A stretch of 64,000 nt of DNA from an uncultured Acidobacteriota bacterium (GTDB lineage: Bacteria; Acidobacteriota; Thermoanaerobaculia; UBA5066): the NCBI GenBank assembly GCA_963801475.1, contig CAWDEX010000001.1, positions 2,567,019 through 2,631,018 on the forward strand. Reading direction: 5' to 3'. Under the pieces are notes generated by a model, which worked only from the letters and a program-made list of their open reading frames with translations, searched no databases and was not told the DNA's origin. This document shows, in pieces, positions 3,928 to 52,850 of the stretch (its first letter is position 1; each line of letters begins with the position of its first letter). The position numbers and the translations under genes are program-made.

Positions 3928-4545
3928 ATGAAGGTGAAGACGATGAACGAGACGAGCCAGCCCCCGACCCCGACGTCAACGGCCCCTTCGACCTCGTGGC
4001 CGGCCCCGCCGCCCGCCGCGGCGCCTCCGGCCCCGCCGGTCGCCTATCCGCCTTTTCCGGCCACCGCCCCCTCGCCCCAGGCGAAGAACCCCGCCGCGGC
4101 GGGGCTTCTGTCGGTCATCCCCGGCCTCGGACACGTCTATCTCGGGCTGTACCAGCGCGCCGTCATCTTCTTCGCGGTCTGGGTGGTCGTGATGACGGTG
4201 GCCCCGCACGGTCCTGGGCCGGCCGGTCTGATGATCCCGTTCTGGTGGTTCTTCGTCCTGATTGACGCCGTCCGCCAGGCCAAGGCGATCAACGCGACGG
4301 GGGCTCCCGAGTCGAACCTCCTGCCCAACGAGAAGCCGATGAACTTCAGCGGCAGCCTCACCTTCGGGATCTTCCTCGTCCTCGTTGGGGTGTTCTTCCT
4401 CCTCGACCGCTACTTCCGGATCGACCTCTCGTTCCTCTTCGACTTCTGGCCGGTCCTGCTGATCGCGTTCGGCGCGTGGCAGATCTTCGCCTACTGGAAG
4501 TCGAAACAGCCGGCGGAGCCGAAGGAGCCGAAGCTCGAGGGCTGA
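3928..4545 (+). CDS. Small integral membrane protein with a Pro/Ala-rich N-terminus
   Basis: In-frame ATG at 3928 ([11 protein letters not shown]). There are four hydrophobic helices, including the motifs [30 protein letters not shown] and [15 protein letters not shown]. The part of ORF 3769..4545 upstream of 3928 overlaps the anti-sigma gene. Confidence 0.6.
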
Positions 4546-4609
4546 CCGGAACGGAAATCGACGGGTCCGCTCCGAGGGCCGGGTCGCGAGACCCGGCCCT
4601 TTCCTTTCC

Positions 4610-6554
4610 TCAGGCGCCTCGGCGGAGGACCCAGACACCCGCTCCGACGAGGAGGGCCGTCAGGAGCGCGAGCGCCCGCGGATCGAGCGCCGGGATGTCG
4701 GCCGGCGAGCCGCCGTTCCCGACGATCACGACGACCTGGGAGGTCGCCCCGACCCCCGGCCCGTTCGAGGCCGTCGCGGTCGCGAGATTCGTGAGAGTCG
4801 TCGAGACCGGCGGCGCCTGGGCCGAGATCGTCACGGTGGCGGTCGCGCCAGGCGCGAGCGTCCCGAGCAGCGCCGTCACGAGCCCCGCCGAGTCGCTGCA
4901 GCTCCCTTGTGACGCGCTGCAGGATACGAACGCCAGCCCCGGAGGAAGCTGATCGGAGACGGTGACGTCGAGGGCCGTCACCGTGCCGGTGTTTCCAACG
5001 ACGATCGTGAACGCGACGATGCCGCCCGGGGGCACCGGGTTCGGCACTGCGGTCTTCTGGACGGCGAGCGTGACGGCGCCTCCCGGAGGCGTCGGGGTCG
5101 GCGTGGACGTCGGTGTAAACGTCGGCGTCGGAGCCGGCGGAGTCCCCGTCGGTGTCTGAGTCGGCGTCTGCGTCTGGGTCGGCGTCCCCGTCGGCGTCTG
5201 AGTCGGCGTCGGTGTCCACGTAGGAGTCCACGTCGGCGTCACTGTGGGCGTCAGCGTCGGAGTCGGCGTCGGAGTCGGCGTATTCGTCGGCGTGAACGTC
5301 GGCGTCGGGGGCGGCGGCGTCCCGCGGCGTACTCGTCGGCGTCGCCGTCGATGTGCTCGTCGGAGTGGGCGTCACGGTCGGCGTGACTGTCGGTGTGTTC
5401 GTGGGAGTCGACGTCACCGTCGACGTCGGGGTCGGCGTCCACGTCGGGGTCAAAGTCGGCGTCAGCGTCGGCGTGTTCGTCGGCGTGAACGTCGGCGGCG
5501 GGGGGGTCAAGGTCGGCGTTTGAGTCGGTGTGGGCGTGGCCGTCGGCGTCCATGTCGGCGTCTGAGTCGGCGTCTGGGTCGGTGTCGGGGTCGGGGTCGG
5601 CGTGTCCGTCGGCGTCTGAGTCGGTGTGGGCGTGGCCGTCGGCGTCCACGTCGGCGTCCCCGTCGGCGTCTGCGTCGGCGTTGGGGTGGCCGTCGGCGTA
5701 AGCGTAGGCGTGTTCGTTGGAGTGAACGTCGGCGTCGGAGGCGGCGGCGTAAAGGTCGGCGTACTGGTCGGGGTCCCCGTCGGCGTGAGCGTCGGAGTGT
5801 TCGTCGGGGTCGCCGTCGGTGGAGGGAAGGTGCAGGGTGGCGCAGAGCCGGTCGGACGGATCGTGACGGCGCTCTCCGCCCAGAAGGCTCCGTTAGAGAG
5901 CGTCCAGGACATCGTCACGCTCGGCGTCGTCCCCGACCTGACGCTCCCGCCGCCGAATGCGTTCTGCGAGTTCGCCCCCCCCGTCGTGCCGGCGTTCCAG
6001 AGCGGCGTCTGTCCCGGCCCGGCCGTCAGGCCCCCGGCGTCTCCCCGCGCCGCCACGTTGTCGAAGAGATACTGTCCTTCCGTCGTCGGGCAGGCCACCG
6101 ACGCCAGCGTCGTGTTCCCCTGCGCGCTCGCCGCCGAGTAGAAGCAGACGGGGGAAGTCTGATCGACCCCGGCGAAGGAGGCGGATCCCCCGACCGCGCG
6201 GACGGCCGAGCCGAAGGTCACCGTGATCGTGGCGGTGCCGGAGCTCGGGTTCACGAGGCGGAAGATCTCCGACTTCATCATGTTGTTTCCGTCCACGGCG
6301 CTTCCGGCGGACGTGAGCGCTTGAGCCCCGAAGGTGACGCTCGAAACCGTCGTGCCGCCGCCGCGGATGGAGAGACCCACGAGAAGAAGCCGGTTGCTCC
6401 CGGAGCCGACCGTGTGACTCCACGAGAGGGTGGTCTGATCGCCCGACGTCACGATCGTGCCGCTGGCGTCATAGGAGACCTGGGCGGTCGAAAGCGACGC
6501 CGGGAGAAGGGAGCCGAAAACGAGAAGAAAGACCCCGAGGCTCGGAGGTCCCAC
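4610..6554 (-). CDS. Surface/secreted protein: signal peptide, about 230-aa beta-rich domain, about 250-aa Pro-Thr linker, DUF11-like repeat domain, IPTL-CTERM-like sorting tail. It is interrupted by one apparent 1-nt insertion near 5324.
   Basis: Frame of ORF 4491..6674: [20 protein letters not shown] signal, then TPT repeats up to ...TPTSTP. Frame of ORF 4610..5242 continues [13 protein letters not shown]... into [42 protein letters not shown] (DUF11-like) and the C-terminal [28 protein letters not shown]. Removing one base gives 1944 nt, which is 648 codons. The GTG start at 6554 is a guess. Confidence 0.6.
5080..5834 (-). repeat. Low-complexity coding repeat (Pro-Thr linker, degenerate ACGCCG units)
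   Basis: Visible as cgtcgg/cgtcgg periodicity on the + strand. All three reverse frames stay open here, reading as PT-rich, D/A/H-rich and R-rich. Confidence 0.85.
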
Positions 6555-6750
6555 CCAGCCCGGCGCGCCGTCCACGCCACCTGATTCGCTTCTAGACACC
6601 AATCGACGTGATTCTAGGGCCTCCACGGCGAATTTCGATCCTCCGGCATCGACCCGAGACCTGAAGCGCAACATGGGCCACCGCGACGCCCCAAGCCATG
6701 GCTGCGGCGAAACAGGCCGGCGTGGCCGCCGCGAAACGAGCGCTACGCGC

Positions 6751-10798: not shown

Positions 10799-12085
10799 TC
10801 AGTTCAGGCCCCAGCGGCGAAGGCGGTAGTAGAGCGTCCGGACCGAGATGCCGAGGAGCCGCGCCGCCTCTTCGCGGTTTCCTCCGCACCGGCGGAGGGC
10901 CTCGAGGAGCGCTTCGCGGCCCCGGGTCTCCTCGTCGAGCGAAGGAGCGGAGGCTCCCGCCGCAGACGGGGCGAGCCGCAGGTCCTCGGGGCGGATCGGC
11001 TGACCGGCCCGGATCACGACGGCGCTCTCGAGGACGTTCCGGAGCTCGCGGACGTTGCCCGGCCACGGATGCCCCTCGAGCGCCGCGAGGGCCGCGGCCG
11101 TCAGTTCGGGCGGCGACACGCGGTGCCGGACGGCGAGCCGCGCGACGAAGTGGCGGGCGAGGCGTTCCACGTCTCCCGTCCGCTCGCGGAGCGGCGGCAG
11201 GATGACCGGCACGACCGCGAGCCGGAAGTAAAGGTCCCGTCGGAAAGCACCCGACTCGGCCTCCCGCACGAGGTCCCGGTTCGTCGCCGCGACGATCCGG
11301 ACGTCCACCGGGAGGTCGCGCTCGCTTCCGACGCGGCGGACGATCCTCTCCTCGAGCGCCCGGAGGAGCTTGGACTGGAGCGCCGCCGGCAGCTCGCCCA
11401 CCTCGTCGAGGAAGAGGGTGCCGCCCGACGCCTCCTCGAACCGACCCGCGCGCGCCCGGTCGGCTCCCGTGAAGGCTCCCTTCTCGTGCCCGAACAGCTC
11501 GCTGTCGGCCAGGGTCTCGGGAAAGGCCGCTGCGTTGACGGCCACGAACGGGCCGGCGGCGCGCCTCGAGCGGGTATGCACGCGTCGGGCGATCACCTCC
11601 TTCCCCGTTCCCGACTCTCCGAGGACGAGGACCGGAACGTCCGCCGCGGCCACCCGGTCGACGAGCTCCAGCAGCTCCTTCATCCGGGCGTCCCCCGTCA
11701 CCAGCTCCACCTCGCCCGCCTCCGGGGCCAAAAGGCGCCCCGCGAGCGCGAGGAGTGCCCGAGGCGACTCGAGCGGCTTCGTCAGGTAGTCCGCCGCGCC
11801 GAGCCGCACGGCCTCCACGGCGTCGGGGATCGTTCCGAAGGCCGTCAGAAGGACGAACGGAGGGAGGGCCGGAACCTCGGCGCGGCCTTTCCGCAGGAGC
11901 GCGAGACCGTCCAGCTTCGGCATCCGCTGGTCGGCGAGAACGAGGTGGAACGCCTCCCGGCGGAGGAACAGGAGCGCCTCCTCGCCGTCGCGCGCCTCGG
12001 TGACGGCGTGGCCCTCCCCCTCGAGGATGTCCCGGAGGAGCGCGCGGAAGGACGGATCGTCGTCGGCGACGAGGACCCTCGCCAT
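10799..12085 (-). CDS. Sigma54-dependent response regulator (NtrC family: receiver + AAA+ + Fis-type HTH)
   Basis: MARVLVADDDPSFRALLRDILEGEGH...LADQRMPKLDG (receiver). GESGTGKEVIARRVH (Walker A). ELFGHEKGAFTGA (GAFTGA). LFLDEVGELP (Walker B). C-terminal NREEAARLLGISVRTLYYRLRR. Confidence 0.9.
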   Translation of the reverse strand: MARVLVADDDPSFRALLRDILEGEGHAVTEARDGEEALLFLRREAFHLVLADQRMPKLDGLALLRKGRAEVPALPPFVLLTAFGTIPDAVEAVRLGAADYLTKPLESPRALLALAGRLLAPEAGEVELVTGDARMKELLELVDRVAAADVPVLVLGESGTGKEVIARRVHTRSRRAAGPFVAVNAAAFPETLADSELFGHEKGAFTGADRARAGRFEEASGGTLFLDEVGELPAALQSKLLRALEERIVRRVGSERDLPVDVRIVAATNRDLVREAESGAFRRDLYFRLAVVPVILPPLRERTGDVERLARHFVARLAVRHRVSPPELTAAALAALEGHPWPGNVRELRNVLESAVVIRAGQPIRPEDLRLAPSAAGASAPSLDEETRGREALLEALRRCGGNREEAARLLGISVRTLYYRLRRWGLN

Positions 12086-12086
12086 C

Positions 12087-13292
12087 TCAGCCCCCGCCTG
12101 CCGGGAGAGCGAGTCGCGCCACGCATCCGCCCCCTTCCCGCGCCGCGAGCGTCACGTCACCGCCGGCGGCGCGAGCGAGCGCGCGGACGATCGGAAGGCC
12201 CAGGCCGGTTCCACCCGGCCGCGTCGTGACATACGGGTCGAAAGCCTCTTCCGGGTCGACCGAGAGACCGGGGCCGCGGTCGAGCACCTCGGCAAGGCTT
12301 CTCTCTCCGACCCGGCGGACGGCGAGGCGCACCTCCCCGGAGGGGTCGAGAGAGCGCGCGTTTGCGACCAGCTCCTCGAGAATCTCCCTCGCGTGCCCGG
12401 CGTCGCCCACGGCCATGACCGGCGCCGCGCCCTCGAGCGGAAGCCCTCCCGCCTCCGCGGCGACCTCGCCCGCGAGGGCGGCGAGGTCGAACGGACCCGG
12501 GACCGGCTCGGGTGGCCGGGCGAACCGGAGCAGCTGCGCGACCATGCCGTCGATCCGGTCGCTCGCCTCCACGATCCGCGCGGCCCGCGCCCCCATGGGC
12601 GAGGCCGGCTCGTCGGCCATGAGCTGCGCCGTTCCCTTGATCGCGGCGAGAGGGTTCCGGATCCGGTGCGCCAGTCCGGCGCCAGCCAGCGCGAGGGCGT
12701 CCAGCCGTTGTCTCTCGATCTCGAGAAGCTCGGTCCGCCGCCGCTCGGCAAGGCCGCGCGCGGCAAAAAGAGCGAAGCCGACAAGGCCGGCCCCGGCCAC
12801 GACGGAGCCGAGGACGAGAGCGTTCGCGAGCCTCGTCTCACGCCCGAACGCGGGCGCCGGATAGAGCCGGACGACGAGACGCGACGGCCCCATCCCGCCG
12901 CGCCCCATCGCGGGACCGCGTCCCGGTCCCATGCCGATCGCGTCCCGCCAGTCGCGCCCCAGCATCCCGGGCATCTCGAACGGGACGCCGTCGGTCGCGC
13001 CCGCCGAAGCGAAAACACCCGCCGGACCGGCCACGGCCGCACCCACGAGACGATCGCGCTGCTCGGACACGAACTCGGCGAGAATCGCCGCCGCCCCCGC
13101 GGGCCCGCTGTCCCTCAGGCGCAACTCGAGCTCGTGCCCCGCGCGGCCGAGGACCCCGTCGCGTACGGCCGCGTCTCGCTCTCGCAGCGTCCGCGCCGCC
13201 ACGAGCGCCACCCCGACCAGGCCCAGGGCGAGCATCGCGGCAGCCACCACGGGAGCGGCGAGGAAAGGGGTCCGATGTCGGGGGGAGCTCAC
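12087..13292 (-). CDS. Sensor histidine kinase (two TM segments, HisKA + HATPase_c)
   Basis: The GTG at 13292 overlaps the upstream stop (GTGA). H-box LAGAGLAHRIRNPLAAIKG. G-boxes DRGPGL and GGTGLGLPIV. The periplasmic loop contains IGMGPGRGPAMGRGGMGP. The N-terminal 225 aa of the track ORF are off-frame read-through. Confidence 0.8.
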   Translation of the reverse strand: MSSPRHRTPFLAAPVVAAAMLALGLVGVALVAARTLRERDAAVRDGVLGRAGHELELRLRDSGPAGAAAILAEFVSEQRDRLVGAAVAGPAGVFASAGATDGVPFEMPGMLGRDWRDAIGMGPGRGPAMGRGGMGPSRLVVRLYPAPAFGRETRLANALVLGSVVAGAGLVGFALFAARGLAERRRTELLEIERQRLDALALAGAGLAHRIRNPLAAIKGTAQLMADEPASPMGARAARIVEASDRIDGMVAQLLRFARPPEPVPGPFDLAALAGEVAAEAGGLPLEGAAPVMAVGDAGHAREILEELVANARSLDPSGEVRLAVRRVGERSLAEVLDRGPGLSVDPEEAFDPYVTTRPGGTGLGLPIVRALARAAGGDVTLAAREGGGCVARLALPAGGG

Positions 13293-14086
13293 GGCGTGGA
13301 GCCTACGGTCTTTCCCACTCCCCGGCCCTCGATTCTGCCGAGAAGCCGGAGGAGCCCGTCGAGAATCGTCAGCGGATGCGGCGGGCAGCCGGGGATGAAG
13401 AGGTCGACGGGGACGGTCGAGGCGGCGCCGCCGTGCTGCTCCGGCCGGTCGAGGTAAGGCCCCCCCGAGATGGCGCAGGCGCCGACGGCGATGACGATCT
13501 TCGGGTCGGGGACGGCGTCGTACGTCTTCTTGAGAGCCAGTCGCATGTTCTCCGTGACGGGGCCGGTGATCAGAAGGCCGTCCGCGTGCCGCGGCGAGGC
13601 CACGATCTGGATGCCGAACCGGCCGATGTCCCAGACGACCGTGGAGAGGACGTTGACGTCGGCCTCGCAGGCGTTGCACCCCCCCGCGCTGACCTGGCGG
13701 AGCTTCAGCGACCGCCCGAAGAGCCTGCGGAGCTTCCCGTCGAGGGCCGCGGCCCGCTCGATCTCTCGCCCCTTCGTGACGAGAGCCTCGCGGCTCCCCG
13801 TGGCGAGCCGGTAGTCGCCCGTGAAGGCAACCGCCTTCTCGGGACAGGCCCTCTCGCACTCGGGACAGAAGAGGCACTTCCCGAGGTCGACGGAGACCCC
13901 GCCGCTTCCGACCGCGATCGCCTGCGTCGGACACGCGTCCGCGCAGTCGCGACATTCCGCGGGACACCGGACCGCGTCGATCGAGGGAAGGCCCCGGAAG
14001 CGATCCGGAAGCGCCGGCGGAGGCCCGTCGGGGAACGGGCTCGTCCGGTGCCCCTGTGCAAGCCTTGCCCTGAGGGCCTTCAGCAC
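13289..14086 (-). CDS. Fusion of a 2x[4Fe-4S] ferredoxin domain (HycF/NuoI-like) and a NuoB/HycG-like small subunit
   Basis: CPAECRDCADACP and CLFCPECERACP are two ferredoxin motifs. Next come GGCNACEADV, GACAISGGPY and PGCPPHP, the proximal-cluster Cys pattern of group-4 hydrogenase small subunits. Confidence 0.8.
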   Translation of the reverse strand: MLKALRARLAQGHRTSPFPDGPPPALPDRFRGLPSIDAVRCPAECRDCADACPTQAIAVGSGGVSVDLGKCLFCPECERACPEKAVAFTGDYRLATGSREALVTKGREIERAAALDGKLRRLFGRSLKLRQVSAGGCNACEADVNVLSTVVWDIGRFGIQIVASPRHADGLLITGPVTENMRLALKKTYDAVPDPKIVIAVGACAISGGPYLDRPEQHGGAASTVPVDLFIPGCPPHPLTILDGLLRLLGRIEGRGVGKTVGSTP

Positions 14087-14096
14087 GCGCGCTCCA

Positions 14097-15617
14097 TCAC
14101 AGGTCGTGCCCGCAATACGAGAGGTTGAAGCTCTTGTTGCAGAGCGGGAAGTCGGAGATCTCCCCGCCCCGGAGGGCGAGCGCCAGCCCGAACCAGTTGT
14201 GGAACGAGGGATCGGTGATCTTGTACCTCTCGAAGCACCCGTCGGCGCCGGTCACGGCCACGTGGCAGATCTCGCCCCGCCATCCTTCGACGAGGGAGAC
14301 CGCCAGGCTTTCCCTGGCGAGCGGGCCTGTCGGCGTCCGGATCGGCGTATCCGGAAGCGCCGCCAGCCGCTCGCCGACGAACTGAATCGACTGCTGCATC
14401 TCGAGCCATCTCACGACGGCCCGGGAGTTCACGTCGCCGTAGTGGGCGGTCATGACCGGGATGTGGGCGTACTGGTAGATGCCGTTCGGGTGATCGTGCC
14501 TCACGTCGCGCACGAGGCCCGTCGCCCGGGCCGCCGGGCCCACGAGTCCGATCTCCTCGGCCGTCGCGCGGGAGACCGTTCCCGTGTTCTCGAAGCGGGC
14601 CACGACCGTCGGGGTCGCCCAGAGAAGCTCCACGGCTCCCCGGACATCCCGATCCGCCGCGGCGAGGCGCGAGGCCAGATCGGAGAGGGCGGCGTCGTCC
14701 ACGTCGAAGCCGACGCCGCCGGGGCGGATCAGGCCGCGCCCGAAGCGGCTGCCAGAGAGCGCCGCGGTCATGTTGAGAAAGTCGCCGCGGATCCGCCCGC
14801 AGTAGGAGGCTGTCGGCAGATAGCCGACGTCGCCCGCGAGCGCGCCGAGGTCGCCCGTATGGTTGGCGAGGCGCTCCAGCTCCAGCGCCACGCCCCGGAG
14901 GGCCTGCGCGCGGGCCGGCGGCGCCGTTCCCGAGAGCGCCTCGAGCGTCTGGACGTAAGCGATCGCGTGGCCGGCCGTCGTGTCGCCCGCCACCGTCTCC
15001 ACCTGGTGGATCGTCGACCGGTGCGGCCCACCCTTCAGCGCCTCCTCGACCCCCCGATGCTGGTAGCCGAGGGAGATCTCGAGGTGGAAGACGCGCTCGC
15101 CGTGGCACTGGAAACGGAAGTGCCCCGGCTCGATGACGCCGGCGTGGACGGGGCCGACGGCGACTTCGTGGACCTCGTCCCCTTCCACGCGGAAGAAGGG
15201 CGTCACGCCCGGGACCGCCTCTTCGCCCGGAGCGCGCCCGAAGGCGTCCCGCCCCGGTCGCCAGGAACTCCGGAACCTCACCGGTTTCAGCCAGGGATGG
15301 CCCTGCGGCTTCACGCCGAGCTGTTCCGCCATCTCCCGCTCGAAGAGGTGTGCCTGCGGGCAGAGGGGCGTGAGCGCCGGATAGTCGTCCCCGGAGAGCC
15401 GCGTCCTCGCCACGTGGAGCCACCCCTTCCGGTCGTCCGCGAGAACCGCGAACATCCGGAGGTGGTCCGCGCCGGACGGTGCGTCGGCGAAGAGCGAGAC
15501 GAGCCTCCGGCCGGCGGAGACTTCCGACAGGACCGTTCCGCGGAAGTCGTCGAATTGACTCTCGGGGATCTCCCCGAGCGGAACCGCGGTCGCGTTTCGA
15601 AGCGGAAGGAAGCTCAA
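14097..15617 (-). CDS. NuoC+NuoD / HycE-HyfG-like large subunit lacking the canonical Ni-Fe cysteine ligands (Ehr-type)
   Basis: GPVHAGVIEPGHFRFQCHGERVFHLEISLGYQHRGVEE is typical of HycE/NuoD. The L1 position reads ETVAGDTTAGH instead of CGxC...H. The C-terminus reads FPLCNKSFNLSYCGHDL instead of DPCxxCxDR. The TTG start at 15617 (TTGA overlap) is tentative. Confidence 0.8.
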   Translation of the reverse strand: MSFLPLRNATAVPLGEIPESQFDDFRGTVLSEVSAGRRLVSLFADAPSGADHLRMFAVLADDRKGWLHVARTRLSGDDYPALTPLCPQAHLFEREMAEQLGVKPQGHPWLKPVRFRSSWRPGRDAFGRAPGEEAVPGVTPFFRVEGDEVHEVAVGPVHAGVIEPGHFRFQCHGERVFHLEISLGYQHRGVEEALKGGPHRSTIHQVETVAGDTTAGHAIAYVQTLEALSGTAPPARAQALRGVALELERLANHTGDLGALAGDVGYLPTASYCGRIRGDFLNMTAALSGSRFGRGLIRPGGVGFDVDDAALSDLASRLAAADRDVRGAVELLWATPTVVARFENTGTVSRATAEEIGLVGPAARATGLVRDVRHDHPNGIYQYAHIPVMTAHYGDVNSRAVVRWLEMQQSIQFVGERLAALPDTPIRTPTGPLARESLAVSLVEGWRGEICHVAVTGADGCFERYKITDPSFHNWFGLALALRGGEISDFPLCNKSFNLSYCGHDL

Positions 15618-17047
15618 GGCCCGCCCTCCAGGCCGCCCGCCGCCCCCGCGATCAGCTTCCGGAGCGGCTCCGGAACCCAGAGGCCGAGGAGAAGGACGAG
15701 AGCCATCGAGAGGAGGATCGGGCCGGTCTTCCGGATGTTGTCCTGGTACGGCGATTCGAGAGCTTCCCGCGAGGGGCGCCCCTGAACGACGGAGAGGACC
15801 GTCGCCCCCATCCCGAGGAAGACCACCGCGAGGAGTCCGACGTAGAGGGCGGCGACGACGAACCGACCCGACGCGACGGCCGCGTTCAGGATCGCGAAGA
15901 GGCTCACGAACGGGCCGAAGGGCGGGGACCCCGTGATGGCGAGGAATCCCGCGAGGAACAGGCCGCCGGAGAGCGGCAGCCTCACCAGGGCCCCCGACAC
16001 GTCGTCGAGGCTCTTGCTCCGGAAGGCGCGGTGGACGTTCCCTGCCGCGAGGAAGAGAACGGTCTTCGTCAGGCCGTTGTTGATCGCGTGCAGGATGGCC
16101 CCGGCGAGCCCCGCCCCCCCGATCCCGACGCCCAGGACGAGGATTCCCATGTGCTCGACGCTCGAGTAGGCGAGCATCCGCTTGAAGTCGCGCTGGCGGA
16201 CCATCAGGACGGCGGCGACGGCCATGGAGAGGAGCCCGAGGGCGACGAGCAGGCCGCGCGCGAAGGCCCCTTCGCCCGCCGCGCCCACGATCCCGTAGAC
16301 GCGGAGGAGCGCCAGGAAGGCGCAGCTCGTCAGCCCTCCGGCGAGGAGGGCGCCGACGAGACCGGGCGCCTCGCCATAGACGTCCGGTTTCCAGGTGTGA
16401 AGCGGCGCCAGGCCCATCTTGGTGCCGTACCCGACGAGCAGGAGGACGAAGCCCGCCCGGAGCCAGGGCCTCGAGAAGCCGCCGGCGTTCTCGCGAAGCG
16501 TCGCGAAGAGGAGCGACGGCTCGCCGCCGCCGAGGTACGCCGAGTAGCCGAGAAAGAGCGAACCGAGAAGGGCCAGCGCGATCCCGACCGACGCGATCAT
16601 CAGGTACTTCCACGTCGCCTCGATCGAGCGCGCGTTCCTGTTGAAGTAGACGAGCGGCGCCGTCGCCAGCGTCGTCGCCTCCACGGCGACCCACATCAGG
16701 CCGAGGTGCTGGGAGAGGACGAGGAGCGTGGCCGCGGACAGGAAGACGAGCAGGCAGGCGCAGAGGACGCGGTTCGGCCGGTCCAGCCTCAGGCGGAGAT
16801 AGCCGGGCGCGTAGAGCGCGCAGATCGCGAAGAGGACGCTGACGAGGCCGAGCGTCACGCCGCCGAGGGCGTCGAGCTGGAGCCACGTCCCGCGCACGAC
16901 CGGCCCGAGCCCGGCGAGGGCGGCGCTGGTGAGGGCGAGATGCGCCAGGGCGGCCGCCGGAAGGACGAGGGGCCGGGTGCGGTCCGAAGGGACGAGGAAG
17001 GCGAGGACCGCCGCCGCGAGCGGGACGAGGATCAGCGCGAGGGCCAC
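15614..17047 (-). CDS. NuoN/NuoM/HyfF-like antiporter-type membrane subunit
   Basis: 477 aa and highly hydrophobic. It shows the pattern WKYLMIASVGIALALLGS...GYGTKMGLAPLHTWKPDVYGEAP...AYSSVEHMGILVLG, characteristic of Mrp/NuoN-type proton-pumping subunits. Confidence 0.8.
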   Translation of the reverse strand: MALALILVPLAAAVLAFLVPSDRTRPLVLPAAALAHLALTSAALAGLGPVVRGTWLQLDALGGVTLGLVSVLFAICALYAPGYLRLRLDRPNRVLCACLLVFLSAATLLVLSQHLGLMWVAVEATTLATAPLVYFNRNARSIEATWKYLMIASVGIALALLGSLFLGYSAYLGGGEPSLLFATLRENAGGFSRPWLRAGFVLLLVGYGTKMGLAPLHTWKPDVYGEAPGLVGALLAGGLTSCAFLALLRVYGIVGAAGEGAFARGLLVALGLLSMAVAAVLMVRQRDFKRMLAYSSVEHMGILVLGVGIGGAGLAGAILHAINNGLTKTVLFLAAGNVHRAFRSKSLDDVSGALVRLPLSGGLFLAGFLAITGSPPFGPFVSLFAILNAAVASGRFVVAALYVGLLAVVFLGMGATVLSVVQGRPSREALESPYQDNIRKTGPILLSMALVLLLGLWVPEPLRKLIAGAAGGLEGGP

Positions 17048-17050
17048 GGG

Positions 17051-17689
17051 CTATTCCTTCAGGTCCGCCAGGCGCTCGGTGTCGAGCGACGAGAACTCGC
17101 GCCGGATGTGGTTGAGGACGATCCCCATGATGAAGATCGCTACGAGGAGGTCGAGAAGGACTCCCACCTCGACGAGGAACGGCATCGCCTCGATCAGGAC
17201 GAGCCCGAAGACGAAGACGCCGTTCTCGAGGATCAGATAGCCCACCACCTGGACGATCGCCTTCCGCCGCGTCGTCAGGAGGAGGAAGCCCGAGAAGAGT
17301 GTCGCCAGCGAGGCCGGGACGATGAGCGTCCCGACGTGCTCCGGCGCGAGAGGCAGACGGCCCGCGAAGAGGAGCGCCAGGGCCGTGACGATCGCGCCCA
17401 GAAAGAGCGACGGGACGAAGCCGACATACGGCTCGATCTCATGGGCGACGTGGACGTCGCGCATGGCTTTCCGGAGGAGACCGGGAATCAGGACCCCCTT
17501 CAGCGCCGCGGCGCCGGCGGCCATCGCCAGTACGTTCCACCCCGGCTGGCGGTGGACGAGAAGCGGCAGGACCGAGAGGATGGCACCCTGCAGCGCCGCC
17601 GCCCGGATGCAGACGCGCATCCCGCTCGCCCCCAGCGCGAGGAAGTTCATCAGGATGACGAGAACGAGCAGGAGGTCGGCGGGGTGCAT
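17051..17689 (-). CDS. HyfE-like small membrane subunit (NuoK-related C-terminus)
   Basis: ATG at 17689 (MHPADLLLVLVILMNFLALG). 212 aa with about 6-7 TM helices. GYLILENGVFVFGLVLIEAMP is HyfE-like. The upstream part of the 386-aa track ORF is off-frame. Confidence 0.7.
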   Translation of the reverse strand: MHPADLLLVLVILMNFLALGASGMRVCIRAAALQGAILSVLPLLVHRQPGWNVLAMAAGAAALKGVLIPGLLRKAMRDVHVAHEIEPYVGFVPSLFLGAIVTALALLFAGRLPLAPEHVGTLIVPASLATLFSGFLLLTTRRKAIVQVVGYLILENGVFVFGLVLIEAMPFLVEVGVLLDLLVAIFIMGIVLNHIRREFSSLDTERLADLKE

Positions 17690-18606
17690 CAAGGCGCAGA
17701 CCCCGCCAGAAGGAGCATCCCGAGCCCCGAGAGGAGGCACGCGGTGACGAGAAGCTGCGGCACGGCCACGAGCCGGAGCCGTGCCATGACCGACTCGACG
17801 ACCCCGATGAGGATCGCCAGAATGAGCATTCCGGCGAGGAAGACGAGACCGGAGAGCCATGGATCCGCTGCGCCGAACGGAATGGCGACCCGCATCAGGA
17901 GCGCCCCGAGGACGAAGAGCTTGATCGCCGACCCGTAGAGGATGAGTCCGAGGGAGGGACCGGAATGGTCGAGGACCATCACCTCGTGGATCATCGTCAG
18001 CTCGAGGTGCGTGTTCGGGTCGTCGAACGGGATCCGGCTGTTCTCGGCCAGAAGAACGATGAACCACCCCGCCACGACGAGGACGAGCGAGGCCCCGGAC
18101 GTGAGCCAGCCGAGGGACCACGGGTGGGCCAGCATCGAGGAGAGGGAGAACGACCCGGAGATCCGCGCGATGGCCAGGAGGCCGAAGAAGAGAGCTGGCT
18201 CGGCGAGGCACGAGAAGCTCACCTCCCGCGCGGCCCCCATCCCCTCGAACGCCGAGCCGGTGTCGAGCGCGGCCGCGGCCGTGAAGAAGCGCGAAAGTGC
18301 GAAGAGGTAGGCGAAGAGGATCAGGTCGCCGGTGAACGAGACGGGGGCACGCGGGCTCCCGATGGGGACGAGGAGGGAGGCCGCGAGGGGCGCCACGACG
18401 GCGAGGACCGGGCCCGCGAGAAATATCCCCGTGGTCGTCGGGCTCAGGACCGACCCCTTCCGGAAGAGCCGGGCGAGGTCGTGATACGGCTGGAGGAGGG
18501 ACGGTCCGGAACGCCCCGCGAAGGCTGCCTTCGTCCTGCCGATCACCCCGAGGAGGAACGGCGGCGCGAGGAGGACGACGAGAAGGTGGAGCGCGACGTT
18601 CAGCAT
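17689..18606 (-). CDS. NuoH/HycD/HyfC-like membrane subunit
   Basis: MLNVALHLLVVLLAPPFLLGVIGRTKAAFAGRSGPSLLQPYHDLARLFRKG and AENSRIPFDDPNTHLELTMIHEVMVLDHSG match the NuoH/HycD quinone-module signature (the E..R.PFD motif). Confidence 0.85.
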   Translation of the reverse strand: MLNVALHLLVVLLAPPFLLGVIGRTKAAFAGRSGPSLLQPYHDLARLFRKGSVLSPTTTGIFLAGPVLAVVAPLAASLLVPIGSPRAPVSFTGDLILFAYLFALSRFFTAAAALDTGSAFEGMGAAREVSFSCLAEPALFFGLLAIARISGSFSLSSMLAHPWSLGWLTSGASLVLVVAGWFIVLLAENSRIPFDDPNTHLELTMIHEVMVLDHSGPSLGLILYGSAIKLFVLGALLMRVAIPFGAADPWLSGLVFLAGMLILAILIGVVESVMARLRLVAVPQLLVTACLLSGLGMLLLAGSAP

Positions 18607-18610
18607 CGGC

Positions 18611-49332: not shown

Positions 49333-52140
<2,808 letters not shown>

Positions 52141-52265
52141 GGCGCGTCCTCCCTCCCGTGGGCGGATCCTCCCCCATCCGGGGCCCCGGGGGTACCCCTT
52201 CTTTATCCCATTGACTGTTGCAAAAAGCCGGGGATATGCTTCAACCGGCAGGTCCAGAACTAGGT

Positions 52266-52850
52266 ATGTCTCGCAGGCACGACGAGATTCGGCCCGAGGT
52301 TCAGGGTCCCCATGGCTACGGCGTTACGGGGCCCCTGAGAACCTCCGTTCCGGCCCAGTGGAACTGGGAGGAACTGAATTCCGTCTACAGGCCGCGCCTC
52401 ATCGCCGCAGGCATCGTCCGCTTCGGTCTGACGCGCGAGGAGTGCGAGGACGCCGCGCAGACCGTCTTCCTCAAGGTCATCGCGCAGAACCCGCGCGTTC
52501 GCGATCCCAAGGCATATCTCCGCGCCGCGTTCCTGCACCAGGCGCAGAACATCGCCGAAGCGCGCACGCGCGCCCGGGGGCGCGACACCGAGCTGGATCC
52601 CGAGGGGATCTACCGCAGCGCCATCTACGATCCCGAGGAGCGCGAGCGGCAGGCCGAGAAGATCCGGAAGATCACGGCCGTGACCGGCGCCTTCAAGCGG
52701 ATCGGCGACAAGTGCCAGACGGTGATCCGCTGCTACTGCGTCGACGACTGCTCGCTGGCCGAGACGGCCGAAAAGGCCGGCTACTCGGAGAAGACGATCT
52801 GGAAGCGCGTTCAGGAGTGCCTGAAGAGGATGCGGCAATGCCTCGCCTAG
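52266..52850 (+). CDS. ECF-like sigma-70 family factor
   Basis: Region 2-like [42 protein letters not shown]. Region 4-like [39 protein letters not shown]. The start may instead be at 52218. Confidence 0.7.

What the first reader, a model, noticed from the sequence alone, without database searches (positions are those of the whole stretch)
14097..15617. Catalytic 'large subunit' has lost all four canonical Ni-Fe cysteines while the small subunit keeps its Fe-S ligands
At the position of the group-4 L1 motif the protein reads E-T-V-A-G-D-T-T-A-G-H-A-I-A-Y (nt about 14968-15000). As I recall it, the E. coli HyfG motif is E-R-V-C-G-I-C-G-F-A-H-S-V-A-Y. That makes Cys->Ala and Cys->Thr, with the flanking residues conserved.

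At the C-terminus the usual D-P-C-x-x-C-x-D-R is replaced by N-L-S-Y-C-G-H-D-L (nt about 14100-14150). Two non-canonically spaced cysteines are present (LCNKSFNLSYC).

The partner subunit at 13289-14086 retains CNAC...GACAISGG...GCPP plus two full ferredoxin motifs.

This is the signature of a hydrogenase-derived enzyme that cannot bind a Ni-Fe centre yet is not a NuoD. The displaced Cys pair could mark a different cofactor or substrate site.
Basis: partly seen in the sequence, partly recalled or inferred. Interest (0 to 1): 0.65.

Follow-up and report, generated by a model that had tools for sequence, protein, structure and literature searches.

The report
Ehr complex: hydrogenase relative without nickel-iron site
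This gene encodes the large subunit of an "Ehr" complex, a known and very widespread membrane enzyme that descends from hydrogen-producing hydrogenases but has lost the four cysteines that hold the nickel-iron centre; what the complex does is still unknown.

Summary
The 506-aa protein at 14097-15617 (minus strand) is a fused NuoC/NuoD-type group-4 hydrogenase large subunit. All four Ni-Fe cysteines are replaced: L1 RxCGxC becomes T-V-A-G-D-T, and L2 L-C-Y-S-C-T-D-R becomes L-S-Y-C-G-H-D-L. The partner at 13289-14086 keeps all 12 Fe-S cysteines.

This is not a sequencing error and not a one-off. 194 relatives carry the same replacement signature, [A/S]-G-D-[T/S] ... S-Y-x-G-x-D-L. More than 573 species in many phyla encode it at 60% identity or more. 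The operon is fixed: HTH/PTS-EIIA regulator, HyfB (one or two copies), HycD, HyfE, HyfF, large subunit, NuoI-NuoB fusion.

The literature already names this class Ehr (Ech/energy-converting hydrogenase-related complex, first described in Geobacter). The rhizobial hyq operon is a more distant relative. Its function is still unknown.

The "displaced" cysteine pair is C-x8-C, not C-x9-C. It is specific to one clade and is not a family feature.

My best guess is a ferredoxin-fed, ion-translocating oxidoreductase that passes electrons through three [4Fe-4S] clusters to a membrane-side acceptor, probably quinone, possibly reversibly.

Verdict: a new member of a known kind, of moderate-to-low interest.

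The parts
14097..15617 (-). Large subunit (EhrL/HyfG-like). It is a NuoC-like domain (about residues 1-125) fused to a NuoD/[NiFe]-large-subunit-like domain, 506 aa, with no Ni-Fe cysteines.
   Evidence: Pfam Complex1_30kDa plus Complex1_49kDa. Best solved relative is HycE 7z0s_E, E=3e-44. The AF2 model best matches 7z0s_E, TM 0.76. Homologues at 97% to 64% identity.
14955..14999 (-). Former L1 motif, E207-Y221: E-T-V-A-G-D-T-T-A-G-H-A-I-A-Y. Cys is replaced by Ala210 and Thr213. Gly211, Asp212 and His217 are conserved.
   Evidence: Alignments to HycE, MbhL and Nqo4. Column counts in 194 sequences.
14100..14141 (-). Former L2 motif at the C-terminus, C493-L506: C-N-K-S-F-N-L-S-Y-C-G-H-D-L. Cys is replaced by Ser500 and Gly503. 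The clade-specific Cys493 and Cys502 lie here.
   Evidence: Register fixed against Cys-containing relatives that end NKSFELCYSCTDR. Nearly invariant in the 120 closest homologues.
13289..14086 (-). Small subunit (EhrS-like), 265 aa. An N-terminal NuoI/HycF-like 2x[4Fe-4S] domain is fused to a NuoB/HycG-like domain that carries the four Cys of the proximal [4Fe-4S] cluster.
   Evidence: Pfam Fer4_7 plus Oxidored_q6. NCBIfam NuoB, HycF and NuoI hits. All 12 Cys conserved in at least 70 of 74 homologues.
15614..17047 (-). HyfF-like antiporter-type membrane subunit (NuoM/N family).
   Evidence: Pfam Proton_antipo_M. NCBIfam hydrogenase 4 subunit F, below cut-off. Syntenic in all loci.
17051..17704 (-). 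HyfE-like membrane subunit.
   Evidence: NCBIfam hydrogenase 4 membrane subunit, E=7e-22. Syntenic.
17689..18606 (-). HycD/NuoH-like membrane subunit.
   Evidence: Pfam NADHdh, E=1e-33. Syntenic.
18600..20609 (-). HyfB/NuoL-like antiporter-type membrane subunit. In this window one extra base near 18906 breaks it; the true C-terminal 99 aa are in ORF 18611-18910.
   Evidence: NCBIfam hydrogenase 4 subunit B, E=1e-151. Frame comparison with L001. A contig of run X2 lacks the base.
20582..21313 (-). HTH_17 plus PTS_EIIA_2 (PtsN-like) protein, the presumed regulator. It is the first gene of the conserved cluster.
   Evidence: Pfam. Present within 400 nt upstream of hyfB in 55 of 58 loci, and overlapping hyfB in one more. 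Independent gene calls in L082. The phospho-acceptor-type His (GIAIPH) is invariant in 54 of 54.
10799..13286 (-). Histidine kinase (12087-13286) and sigma-54-type response regulator (10799-12085), directly downstream on the same strand. They are adjacent here but are not part of the conserved cluster.
   Evidence: Pfam HisKA/HATPase_c. NCBIfam NtrC/AtoC-like. Not conserved downstream in other loci.

Best explanation
The gene encodes the large subunit of an Ehr-type complex (Ech/energy-converting hydrogenase-related). This is a six-protein, complex-I-like membrane enzyme that descends from group-4 [NiFe] hydrogenases and no longer has a cysteine-ligated Ni-Fe centre.

Shown:
- The four ligand cysteines are replaced by Ala, Thr, Ser and Gly, in a pattern that is strongly conserved across phyla.
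- The electron wire is intact: two ferredoxin-type [4Fe-4S] sites plus the proximal cluster site, all in the fused NuoI-NuoB subunit.
- The membrane arm is present (NuoH-like, HyfE-like and two or three antiporter-like subunits).
- The conserved cluster contains no donor module (formate dehydrogenase, NuoEFG) and no hyp maturation gene.
- An HTH/PTS-EIIA gene always heads the cluster.

Inferred:
- A soluble low-potential carrier such as ferredoxin docks on the NuoI-like domain.
- Electrons pass through the three clusters to an acceptor that binds in or beside the now metal-free, polar pocket (Gly211, Asp212, Thr213, Thr214, His217, Ser500, Cys502, Gly503) at the interface with the NuoH-like subunit. 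The acceptor is most likely a membrane quinone.
- The reaction is coupled to ion translocation by the antiporter-like subunits. It may run in reverse, with the membrane potential driving quinol-to-ferredoxin transfer.
- Expression is probably tied to the phosphorylation state of the EIIA-type regulator.
For: Family identity:
- Motif and fold.
- More than 8000 homologues, the top 120 at 64-97% identity with the same motifs.
- 573+ genome hits in Acidobacteriota, Planctomycetota, Verrucomicrobiota, Chloroflexota, Desulfobacterota including Geobacteraceae, and other phyla.
- Identical synteny.
- The literature defines Ehr as group-4-related complexes that lack the Ni-Fe ligands, lie close to group 4f and have unknown function.
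- The Geobacter subunit names (NuoL-like EhrA-1, HyfE-like EhrC, EhrL, EhrS) match this layout, and the proteins are detected by proteomics.

Intact wire: 12 of 12 Cys conserved.

The site is constrained, not decayed: Asp212 in 189 of 194, Ser500 in 190 of 194, Gly503 in 192 of 194; C-terminal entropy is 0.92 bit against a mean of 2.12.

No donor or maturation genes lie in the conserved neighbourhood.

The family occurs in quinone-respiring aerobes such as Cupriavidus, Burkholderia, Rhodococcus, Variovorax and Allomeiothermus.

Relatives are transcribed in soil and wetland metatranscriptomes.
Against: - No biochemical activity has been shown for any member.
- The acceptor is a guess. The two canonical quinone ligands of complex I (Nqo4 His38 and Tyr87) are absent at the aligned positions (Ile162, Gly211).
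- Some Ehr-bearing lineages were reported to lack quinone biosynthesis, although those may belong to another Ehr clade.
- The A. caulinodans hyq genetics link a related Cys-less complex to H2 evolution.
- The AF2 model is unreliable exactly at the pocket, with pLDDT below 50 at residues 147-184 and 488-506. The geometry of the site was therefore not seen.
- In this window hyfB carries a frameshift.
Confidence: 0.45

Rival explanations
1. It is still a hydrogenase. The complex makes or consumes H2 at a non-canonical site, as was claimed for the rhizobial Hyq "endo-hydrogenase".
For: - In A. caulinodans, deleting hyqRBCEFGI removes about 80% of the very high microaerobic H2 evolution of a hupSL mutant. 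A nifK hupSL mutant still evolves H2.
- The hyq deletion slows diazotrophic growth.
- The gene order of hyq is the same as here.
- The Rhizobium HyqG I read also lacks the four Cys: RTSGDSTVAY ... NKSFNCSYSGHDL.
- Ehr proteins are more abundant in formate-grown Geobacter.
Against: - All four Ni-Fe ligands are missing, and no [NiFe] hydrogenase is known without them.
- No hyp genes lie in the conserved cluster.
- The Hyq evidence is genetic and in vivo only. The authors themselves call the catalytic site speculative, and 20% of the H2 has another, unidentified source. An indirect effect on electron supply would fit as well.
- Ehr expression in Nitrospira moscoviensis did not rise with H2.
- Hyq is only about 36% identical to this protein and lacks the ferredoxin domain.
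Confidence: 0.06
2. It reduces a soluble, non-quinone acceptor (for example polysulfide or sulfane sulfur) directly at or near the proximal [4Fe-4S] cluster. This is what is proposed for the Pyrococcus MBS (Mbx) complex, another hydrogenase derivative that lost its Ni-Fe site.
For: - It is the same kind of evolutionary event: a group-4 scaffold whose metal site is lost while the proximal cluster is kept.
- MbsL (6u8y_L) is a detectable relative, E=3e-17.
- The pocket residues are polar rather than quinone-like.
Against: - The subunit set is Hyf/Ech-like, not the 13-subunit Mrp-type set of MBS.
- HycE, MbhL and NuoD are all closer relatives than MbsL.
- The family is common in aerobic soil bacteria, where polysulfide respiration is unlikely.
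- No sulfur-metabolism genes are conserved nearby.
Confidence: 0.12
3. It runs mainly in reverse. It uses the membrane potential to push electrons from quinol up to ferredoxin or flavodoxin, to serve N2 fixation, CO2 fixation or other low-potential reactions.
For: - hyq belongs to the NifA regulon, and its loss slows growth only on N2. A role in electron supply to nitrogenase would fit this.
- Geobacter authors suggest a role in reverse electron transport.
- The family occurs in autotrophs and aerobes that need reduced ferredoxin, such as Nitrospira.
- The complex has two or three antiporter-like subunits.
Against: - This is the same machine as in the best explanation, only run in the other direction. 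Nothing here fixes the direction.
- Rhizobial HyqI lacks the ferredoxin-docking domain.
- The quinone site is unproven.
Confidence: 0.2
4. It is a decaying relic or pseudo-enzyme. The metal site is simply lost, and in this genome the operon is dead because of the hyfB frameshift.
For: A +1 insertion near 18906 breaks hyfB.
Against: - The replaced site and the Fe-S ligands are among the best conserved parts of the proteins across phyla.
- Identity is 60-80% across very distant phyla with fixed synteny.
- Proteins and transcripts are detected.
- The window carries other apparent indels, for example in hsdM, so the hyfB break may be an assembly error.
Confidence: 0.04

Closest known systems
Ehr complex of Geobacter sulfurreducens (GSU0739-GSU0745; EhrA-1, EhrC, EhrL, EhrS and others), and the "Ehr" complexes reported in Nitrospira, Margulisbacteria, Melainabacteria and other lineages
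   Same: - Group-4-hydrogenase-related membrane complex whose large subunit lacks the CxxC Ni-Fe motifs.
- NuoL-like, HyfE-like, large and small subunits.
- Function unknown.
- Geobacteraceae genomes carry this very operon at 62% identity (L061 and L080).
   Different: I could not read the G. sulfurreducens PCA sequence itself. "Ehr" is used loosely in the literature for any Cys-less group-4 relative, and it covers several clades that are only 35-45% identical to each other.
Hyq "endo-hydrogenase" operon hyqRBCEFGI of Azorhizobium caulinodans and Rhizobium
   Same: - Same gene order: regulator, B, C, E, F, G, I.
- HyqG is a fused NuoC::NuoD of 504-505 aa.
- It has no canonical Ni-Fe cysteines and the same S-G-D-S / S-Y-S-G-H-D-L type of signature.
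   Different: - Only about 36% identical.
- HyqI is a bare NuoB homologue without the 2x[4Fe-4S] domain.
- HyqR is a short HTH protein without an EIIA domain.
- Hyq has Ser where the window has Cys502.
- Hyq is claimed, from genetics, to turn over H2.
E. coli formate hydrogenlyase / hydrogenase-4 (HycE/HyfG, HycG/HyfI, HycF/HyfH, HyfB-F); group 4a [NiFe] hydrogenases
   Same: - Best solved structural and sequence relative: 7z0s_E, E=3e-44, TM 0.76.
- Fused NuoC-NuoD large subunit.
- The same families of membrane subunits.
- The beta1-beta2 loop EPGHFR is shared.
   Different: - HycE has RVCGICGFAH and DPCYSCTDR; here all four Cys are gone.
- There is no C-terminal extension for proteolytic maturation.
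- There is no formate dehydrogenase or HycB partner.
- HycF and HycG are fused into one protein here.
Cys-containing group-4 relatives nearest to this family (the literature places Ehr next to group 4f)
   Same: 36-38% identity to the query, and the shared C-terminal frame D-F-P-L-x-N-K-S-F-x-L-x-Y-x-x-x-D-[RL].
   Different: They keep E-R-I-C-G-V-C...H and L-C-Y-S-C-T-D-R. I did not classify them with HydDB, and I could not inspect their genomic context.
Respiratory complex I Q-module (NuoD/Nqo4, NuoB, NuoI, NuoC, NuoH)
   Same: - Same fold and subunit families.
- No Ni-Fe site.
- Three terminal [4Fe-4S] sites lead towards the membrane interface.
   Different: - The NuoD equivalog models score far below their cut-offs.
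- The Q ligands His38 and Tyr87 (Nqo4) align to Ile162 and Gly211.
- There is no NuoEFG input module and no NuoA/J/K set.
MBS (Mbx) sulfane-sulfur reductase of Pyrococcus furiosus
   Same: A group-4 hydrogenase descendant that lost hydrogenase chemistry but kept the Fe-S wire and ion pumping. It is a detectable homologue (6u8y_L).
   Different: It is a more distant relative than HycE, MbhL or Nqo4. It has an Mrp-type multi-subunit membrane arm that is absent here. That it retains part of its Cys ligands is from my own knowledge and was not tested here.

Membership tests
[NiFe] hydrogenase, group 4, large subunit | L1 motif with two Ni-Fe-ligating cysteines (RxCGxCxxxH) | tested here: not met
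   T-V-A-G-D-T-T-A-G-H aligns to R-V-C-G-I-C-G-F-A-H of HycE and R-M-C-G-I-C-S-F-S-H of MbhL. Position 210 is A145/S37/C8 and position 213 is T143/S36 among 194 relatives.
[NiFe] hydrogenase, group 4, large subunit | L2 motif with two C-terminal cysteines (CxxCxDR) | tested here: not met
   L-S-Y-C-G-H-D-L against L-C-Y-S-C-T-D-R of the nearest Cys-containing relatives. Position 500 is S in 190 of 194 and position 503 is G in 192 of 194.
[NiFe] hydrogenase, group 4, large subunit | Large-subunit/NuoD fold, and a small subunit that carries the proximal [4Fe-4S] cluster | tested here: met
   Foldseek best hit is 7z0s_E. Pfam Complex1_49kDa and Oxidored_q6. The four NuoB-type Cys are conserved.
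[NiFe] hydrogenase, group 4, large subunit | Ni content, H2 turnover and dependence on Hyp maturation | not testable with these tools
   No hyp genes in the conserved neighbourhood. Whole genomes were not examined.
Ehr (Ech/energy-converting hydrogenase-related complex) | Homologue of a group-4 large subunit that lacks the Ni-Fe-binding residues | tested here: met
.
Ehr (Ech/energy-converting hydrogenase-related complex) | Encoded together with a small Fe-S subunit, a NuoH-like subunit and Mrp/NuoL-type antiporter-like subunits | tested here: met
.
Ehr (Ech/energy-converting hydrogenase-related complex) | Orthology with the founding Geobacter sulfurreducens EhrL (GSU0743) | tested here: inconclusive
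   Geobacteraceae MAG loci L061 and L080 hold the same operon at 62% identity, with two hyfB copies in L061 ("EhrA-1" implies two copies). The PCA sequence itself was not available to me.
Hyq (rhizobial hyqRBCEFGI) | Seven-gene order R-B-C-E-F-G-I with a fused NuoC::D HyqG of about 504 aa | tested here: met
Hyq (rhizobial hyqRBCEFGI) | Close sequence relationship and the same subunit architecture (bare NuoB-type HyqI, short HTH HyqR) | tested here: not met
   36% identity. The window's small subunit has an extra 2x[4Fe-4S] domain and its regulator has a PTS_EIIA_2 domain. The two fall in separate clades in a rough NJ tree.
Complex I NuoD (49-kDa subunit) | Scores as NuoD with the curated equivalog models | tested here: not met
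   NF004739 scores 175.5 bits against a cut-off of 360. TIGR01962 scores 144 against 459.
Complex I NuoD (49-kDa subunit) | Quinone head-group ligands His38 and Tyr87 (T. thermophilus Nqo4 numbering; their role is from established knowledge) | tested here: not met
   In an ungapped alignment block, His38 aligns to Ile162 and Tyr87 to Gly211.
MBS/Mbx | Mrp-type multi-subunit membrane module (13-subunit operon) | tested here: not met
   Only Hyf-type subunits are present in the operon.

The most novel reading that the evidence does not exclude
The conserved cysteine-free pocket ([A/S]-G-D-[T/S]-[T/S]...H plus S-Y-C-G-H-D-L) is a real catalytic site of a new kind. In the extreme form suggested by the A. 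caulinodans hyq genetics, it supports H2 formation or oxidation without a Cys4-ligated Ni-Fe centre, which would be a fourth way of doing hydrogenase chemistry. In a milder form, it binds a cofactor or substrate not known for any complex-I-like enzyme.
Probability: 0.05. Interest if true: 0.95.

Novelty: new member of a known kind. Interest (0 to 1): 0.3.

Why it matters
Ehr complexes are among the most widespread complex-I relatives with no assigned function. Here they appear in more than 573 representative species across more than ten phyla, at 60-80% identity and with fixed synteny. Genome annotation usually calls them "Ni,Fe-hydrogenase III large subunit" or "NADH-quinone oxidoreductase subunit C". 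Both names can mislead metabolic reconstructions, for example by inferring H2 production in soil Acidobacteria, Planctomycetes, Verrucomicrobia or Nitrospira.

Knowing the acceptor would fill a gap in the evolutionary story that links membrane hydrogenases to complex I. It would also settle the contested rhizobial "endo-hydrogenase" claim.

For this particular window the finding adds one more member. It also yields some family-level details: the replacement signature, the clade-specific cysteines and the conserved HTH/EIIA regulator.

Tried and rejected
- **Sequencing error hiding the cysteines.** Rejected. The gene is full length and 97% identical to an independent homologue, and 194 relatives share the replacements.
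- **Gapped alternative alignment placing Cys502 on the second L2 cysteine.** Rejected. The nearest Cys-containing relatives share the frame NKSF-x-L-x-Y-x-x-x-D-[RL] without gaps, which puts Gly503 at that position.
- **Cys493/Cys502 as an obligate pair.** Not supported. The four combinations among 75 cluster representatives are 28/22/5/20.
- **Structure prediction of the pocket.** AF2 gave pTM 0.83 but pLDDT below 50 for residues 147-184 and 488-506.
- **Sigma-54 promoter upstream of the operon** (by analogy with hyq/NifA and the adjacent sigma-54 regulator). No match near the operon.
- **Conserved genes downstream of the small subunit.** None; at most 7 of 58 loci share an ORF family, and those look like spurious high-GC ORFs.
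- **Supplementary alignments of the Hyq paper.** Not held.
- **Literature searches.** Two were wasted on "Ehr"/"EhrL" matching health records and Ehrlichia.
- **Source reads.** The runs found hold only relatives (at most 0.34 of the sampled words), so they could not settle whether the hyfB frameshift is real in the source organism.
Full report
**What is there.** The finding lies in a minus-strand operon in DNA of about 70% G+C. The gene at 14097-15617 starts with a TTG that overlaps the stop of the upstream gene (TTGA) and encodes 506 residues. Pfam finds a Complex1_30kDa (NuoC) part and a Complex1_49kDa (NuoD / hydrogenase large subunit) part. The best solved relative is HycE of E. coli formate hydrogenlyase (7z0s_E, E=3e-44). 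It is followed by MbhL of Pyrococcus (6cfw_L), T. thermophilus Nqo4 and many NuoD/NuoCD chains. An AlphaFold2 model (pTM 0.83) matches 7z0s_E best (TM 0.76), then NuoCD. The best solved sequence relative is HycE at 27% identity, so no closer member of this protein's family has been solved.

**The observation.** In the alignments to HycE and MbhL, the query segment E207-T-V-A-G-D-T-T-A-G-H217 lies on D/E-R-V/M-C-G-I-C-G/S-F-A/S-H. The two L1 cysteines are therefore Ala210 and Thr213. At the C-terminus the protein ends D-F-P-L-C-N-K-S-F-N-L-S-Y-C-G-H-D-L. The nearest Cys-containing relatives found by an exhaustive profile search end D-F-P-L-I-N-K-S-F-E-L-C-Y-S-C-T-D-R (P0240, P0242, P0248, P0253 and P0266, at 36-38% identity). 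That fixes the register without gaps. The L2 cysteines are now Ser500 and Gly503, and a cysteine (502) sits one position before the lost second ligand.

The partner protein at 13289-14086 is a fusion of a NuoI/HycF-like 2x[4Fe-4S] domain and a NuoB/HycG-like domain. All twelve of its cysteines are kept in at least 70 of 74 homologues. Two small corrections apply: the spacing of the two extra cysteines is C-x8-C (C493, C502), and the first ferredoxin motif is CxxxCxxCxxxCP.

**Not an error, not a singleton.**
- A word-indexed search returned 8000 proteins at E<1e-10, which is its candidate limit. The best 120 are 64-97% identical and nearly all carry A-G-D-T-T-x-G-H and end C-N-K-S-F-N-L-S-Y-C-G-H-D-L.
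- An exhaustive search of 1.84 billion cluster representatives gave 936 clusters at E<1e-30.
- In an alignment of 198 full-length sequences, 194 are Cys-less at the ligand positions. The counts are: position 210 A145/S37/C8; 211 G191; 212 D189; 213 T143/S36; 217 H172; 500 S190; 503 G192.
- The C-terminal 19 residues are much less variable than the rest of the NuoD-like part (0.92 against 2.12 bits). Much of that motif is shared with the Cys-containing relatives, so part of the conservation is structural.
- The two extra cysteines are not a family trait. Among 75 representatives of 50%-identity clusters, 28 have both, 22 have only C493, 5 have only C502 and 20 have neither. Position 502 is C/S/A and position 493 is C/I/V.

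**Distribution and operon.** The 80 best are 60-80% identical and come from:
- Thermoanaerobaculia and Holophagales (Acidobacteriota), which give the best match at 80% and so are the likely source of the window;
- Planctomycetota, Verrucomicrobiota, Lentisphaerae and Kiritimatiellota (Pontiella);
- Chloroflexota, Latescibacterota, Zixibacteria, Ignavibacteria, Methylomirabilota and Binatia;
- Desulfobacterota including Geobacteraceae, Treponemataceae and Methylococcaceae.

Synteny is essentially invariant: HTH/EIIA gene, HyfB-like (one copy in 28 loci, two in 30), HycD/NuoH-like, HyfE-like, HyfF-like, large subunit, NuoI-NuoB fusion. Independent gene calls on a 653-kb contig agree. Nothing is conserved downstream. 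No hyp, formate dehydrogenase or NuoEFG genes belong to the cluster.

The histidine kinase and sigma-54 response regulator that follow the operon in this window are not conserved elsewhere. No sigma-54 promoter consensus lies near the operon.

**What it is called.** The literature defines energy-converting (or Ech) hydrogenase-related complexes, Ehr, as relatives of group-4 [NiFe] hydrogenases that lack the Ni- and Fe-coordinating residues and carry antiporter-like subunits.
- They are reported in Margulisbacteria, Saganbacteria and Melainabacteria (PMC6349859).
- They are reported in comammox and other Nitrospirales, "phylogenetically close to group 4f", with function unknown and no induction by H2 (PMC10284858 and PMC12342949).
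- The founding example is Geobacter sulfurreducens GSU0739-45 (EhrA-1 NuoL-like, EhrC HyfE-like, EhrL, EhrS). All of its subunits were seen by proteomics and were more abundant on formate (PMC7894505).
- Degli Esposti lists ehr and hyq together as group-4 subtypes without canonical Ni-Fe ligands (PMC4758237).

The window's operon fits this definition, and Geobacteraceae genomes hold the same operon at 62% identity. I could not read the PCA sequences themselves.

**The Hyq connection.** The A. caulinodans hyqRBCEFGI operon has the same gene order, and HyqG is a 504-residue NuoC::D fusion (PMC2650096 and PMC3357923). A Rhizobium plasmid copy that I read (L081) has R-T-S-G-D-S-T-V-A-Y and ends N-K-S-F-N-C-S-Y-S-G-H-D-L, so it too has no canonical ligands. 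It is only about 36% identical to the window protein. Its small subunit lacks the ferredoxin domain, and its regulator is a short HTH protein.

In a rough neighbour-joining tree, the Hyq-like sequences and the S-Y-S/A-G-N-D-L sequences sit with the few Cys-containing relatives, far from the window's S-Y-C-G-H-D-L clade. The tree is unrooted and approximate. It does suggest that "Ehr" covers several deep clades.

The Ludwig laboratory reported that the hyq deletion slows diazotrophic growth. It also reported that about 80% of the very high microaerobic H2 evolution of a hupSL mutant depends on hyq and not on nitrogenase. They call the catalytic site speculative. This is the only functional claim for any relative. 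It is genetic and could be indirect.

**How it probably works.**
- Shown: the Fe-S wire and the membrane arm are conserved. The former metal site is replaced by a conserved polar set (Gly211, Asp212, Thr/Ser213, Thr/Ser214, His217, Ser500, Gly503, plus Cys502 and His504 in this clade). There is no dedicated donor module.
- Inferred: a soluble low-potential carrier (ferredoxin) donates to the NuoI-like domain, as in Ech. Electrons reach the proximal cluster and then an acceptor near the emptied pocket at the NuoH-like interface. I favour quinone for three reasons. The family is common in quinone-respiring bacteria, including aerobes on whose plasmids and chromids it sits (Cupriavidus, Burkholderia, Rhodococcus, Variovorax, Allomeiothermus). 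The cysteines are replaced by small or polar residues, which would leave room. No metal cofactor remains.
- Against quinone: the complex-I quinone ligands are absent (Nqo4 His38 and Tyr87 align to Ile162 and Gly211). The beta1-beta2 loop is of the hydrogenase type (EPGHFR). Some Ehr-bearing lineages reportedly lack quinone synthesis.
- The reaction could run in reverse, from quinol to ferredoxin at the cost of membrane potential. That would fit the nif-regulon membership of hyq and the reverse-electron-transport idea for Geobacter.
- The structural model cannot help. The pocket-forming segments 147-184 and 488-506 have pLDDT below 50.

**Regulation.** The first gene of the conserved cluster (20582-21313) has an HTH_17 domain and a PTS_EIIA_2 (PtsN-like) domain. 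It lies within 400 nt upstream of hyfB in 55 of 58 loci, and overlaps it in one more. Its G-I-A-I-P-H histidine is invariant in 54 of 54. This suggests control by a phosphotransfer signal of carbon, nitrogen or energy status. That is inference only.

**Expression.** Contigs from four soil, wetland and other metatranscriptomes match the conserved parts of the large and small subunit genes at 85-95% identity. Relatives are therefore transcribed in nature, with the caveat that such libraries can contain DNA.

**State of the operon in this window.** hyfB has one extra base near 18906, in a GCGCGC run. It moves the last 99 residues into another frame. The closest genome (L001) and a contig of run X2 lack the base. 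The hsdM-like gene at 22341-23765 also looks doubly frameshifted. The window may therefore be indel-prone, and the break may be an assembly error. The large and small subunit genes are intact.

**Verdict.** The window adds a member from Thermoanaerobaculia. The family's function remains an open question, which gives the finding some residual interest. Nothing here makes that question newly testable beyond the family-level details listed above.

Noticed in passing
window 18600-20609 (-), break near 18906: The hyfB-like gene carries one extra base in a GCGCGC run. It shifts the last 99 residues into the frame of ORF 18611-18910. The closest genome (L001) and a contig of run X2 lack the base. It is unclear whether this is an assembly error or a real pseudogene.
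   Followed up: partly
window 20582-21313 (-); L082 4262-4960 and most of L003-L080: A gene for an HTH_17 plus PTS_EIIA_2 (PtsN-like) protein heads the Ehr operon in 55-56 of 58 loci from many phyla. It has an invariant GIAIPH histidine. I did not find this link in the papers I read. Several Acidobacteriota loci carry a second, 26-32% identical paralogue just upstream.
   Followed up: partly
window 22341-23765 (-) and 23102-23416 (-): In the type I restriction-modification methylase (hsdM-like) gene, the middle of the long ORF reads as Arg/Pro-rich nonsense. The true middle (GQYFTPR...DPACGTGGFL) is in an overlapping ORF in another frame. That means two compensating indels, and it suggests the window is indel-prone.
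   Followed up: no
window 10799-13286 (-): A histidine kinase and an NtrC/AtoC-type sigma-54 response regulator lie directly downstream of the operon on the same strand. They are not conserved next to Ehr operons elsewhere, and no sigma-54 promoter consensus lies near the operon.
   Followed up: partly
window 4491-6674 (-): A large secreted-looking protein has a very long (P-T-P-T-x-T)n linker. The tail of the ORF (D-A-D-S-D-A-D... and Arg-rich) looks like the same repeat DNA read in another frame, so this may be another indel.
   Followed up: no
L004, L008, L010, L017, L024, L027-L030, L043, L061 and others, upstream of the hycD-like gene: About half of the loci (30 of 58) have two tandem hyfB-like (NuoL-type) genes and the rest have one. 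The window has one. This matches the "EhrA-1" naming in Geobacter.
   Followed up: partly
P0129, P0132, P0138, P0139, P0154, P0156, P0178, P0186, P0192: A minority of Ehr-like large subunits keep a cysteine at the first L1 position (x-C-G-D-[ST]) while lacking the other three ligands. They may be intermediates in the loss of the site.
   Followed up: no
L035 18261-21237 (-), L061 12904-21277, L080 13918-15864: Some genomes carry a second, distant group-4/complex-I-like cluster (27-41% identity) within 10 kb of the Ehr operon.
   Followed up: no
window 49333-52323 (-): A pyruvate phosphate dikinase / PEP-utilising enzyme (PPDK_N, PEP-utilizers, PEP-utilizers_C) is encoded elsewhere in the window. 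No link to the EIIA-type regulator was tested.
   Followed up: no
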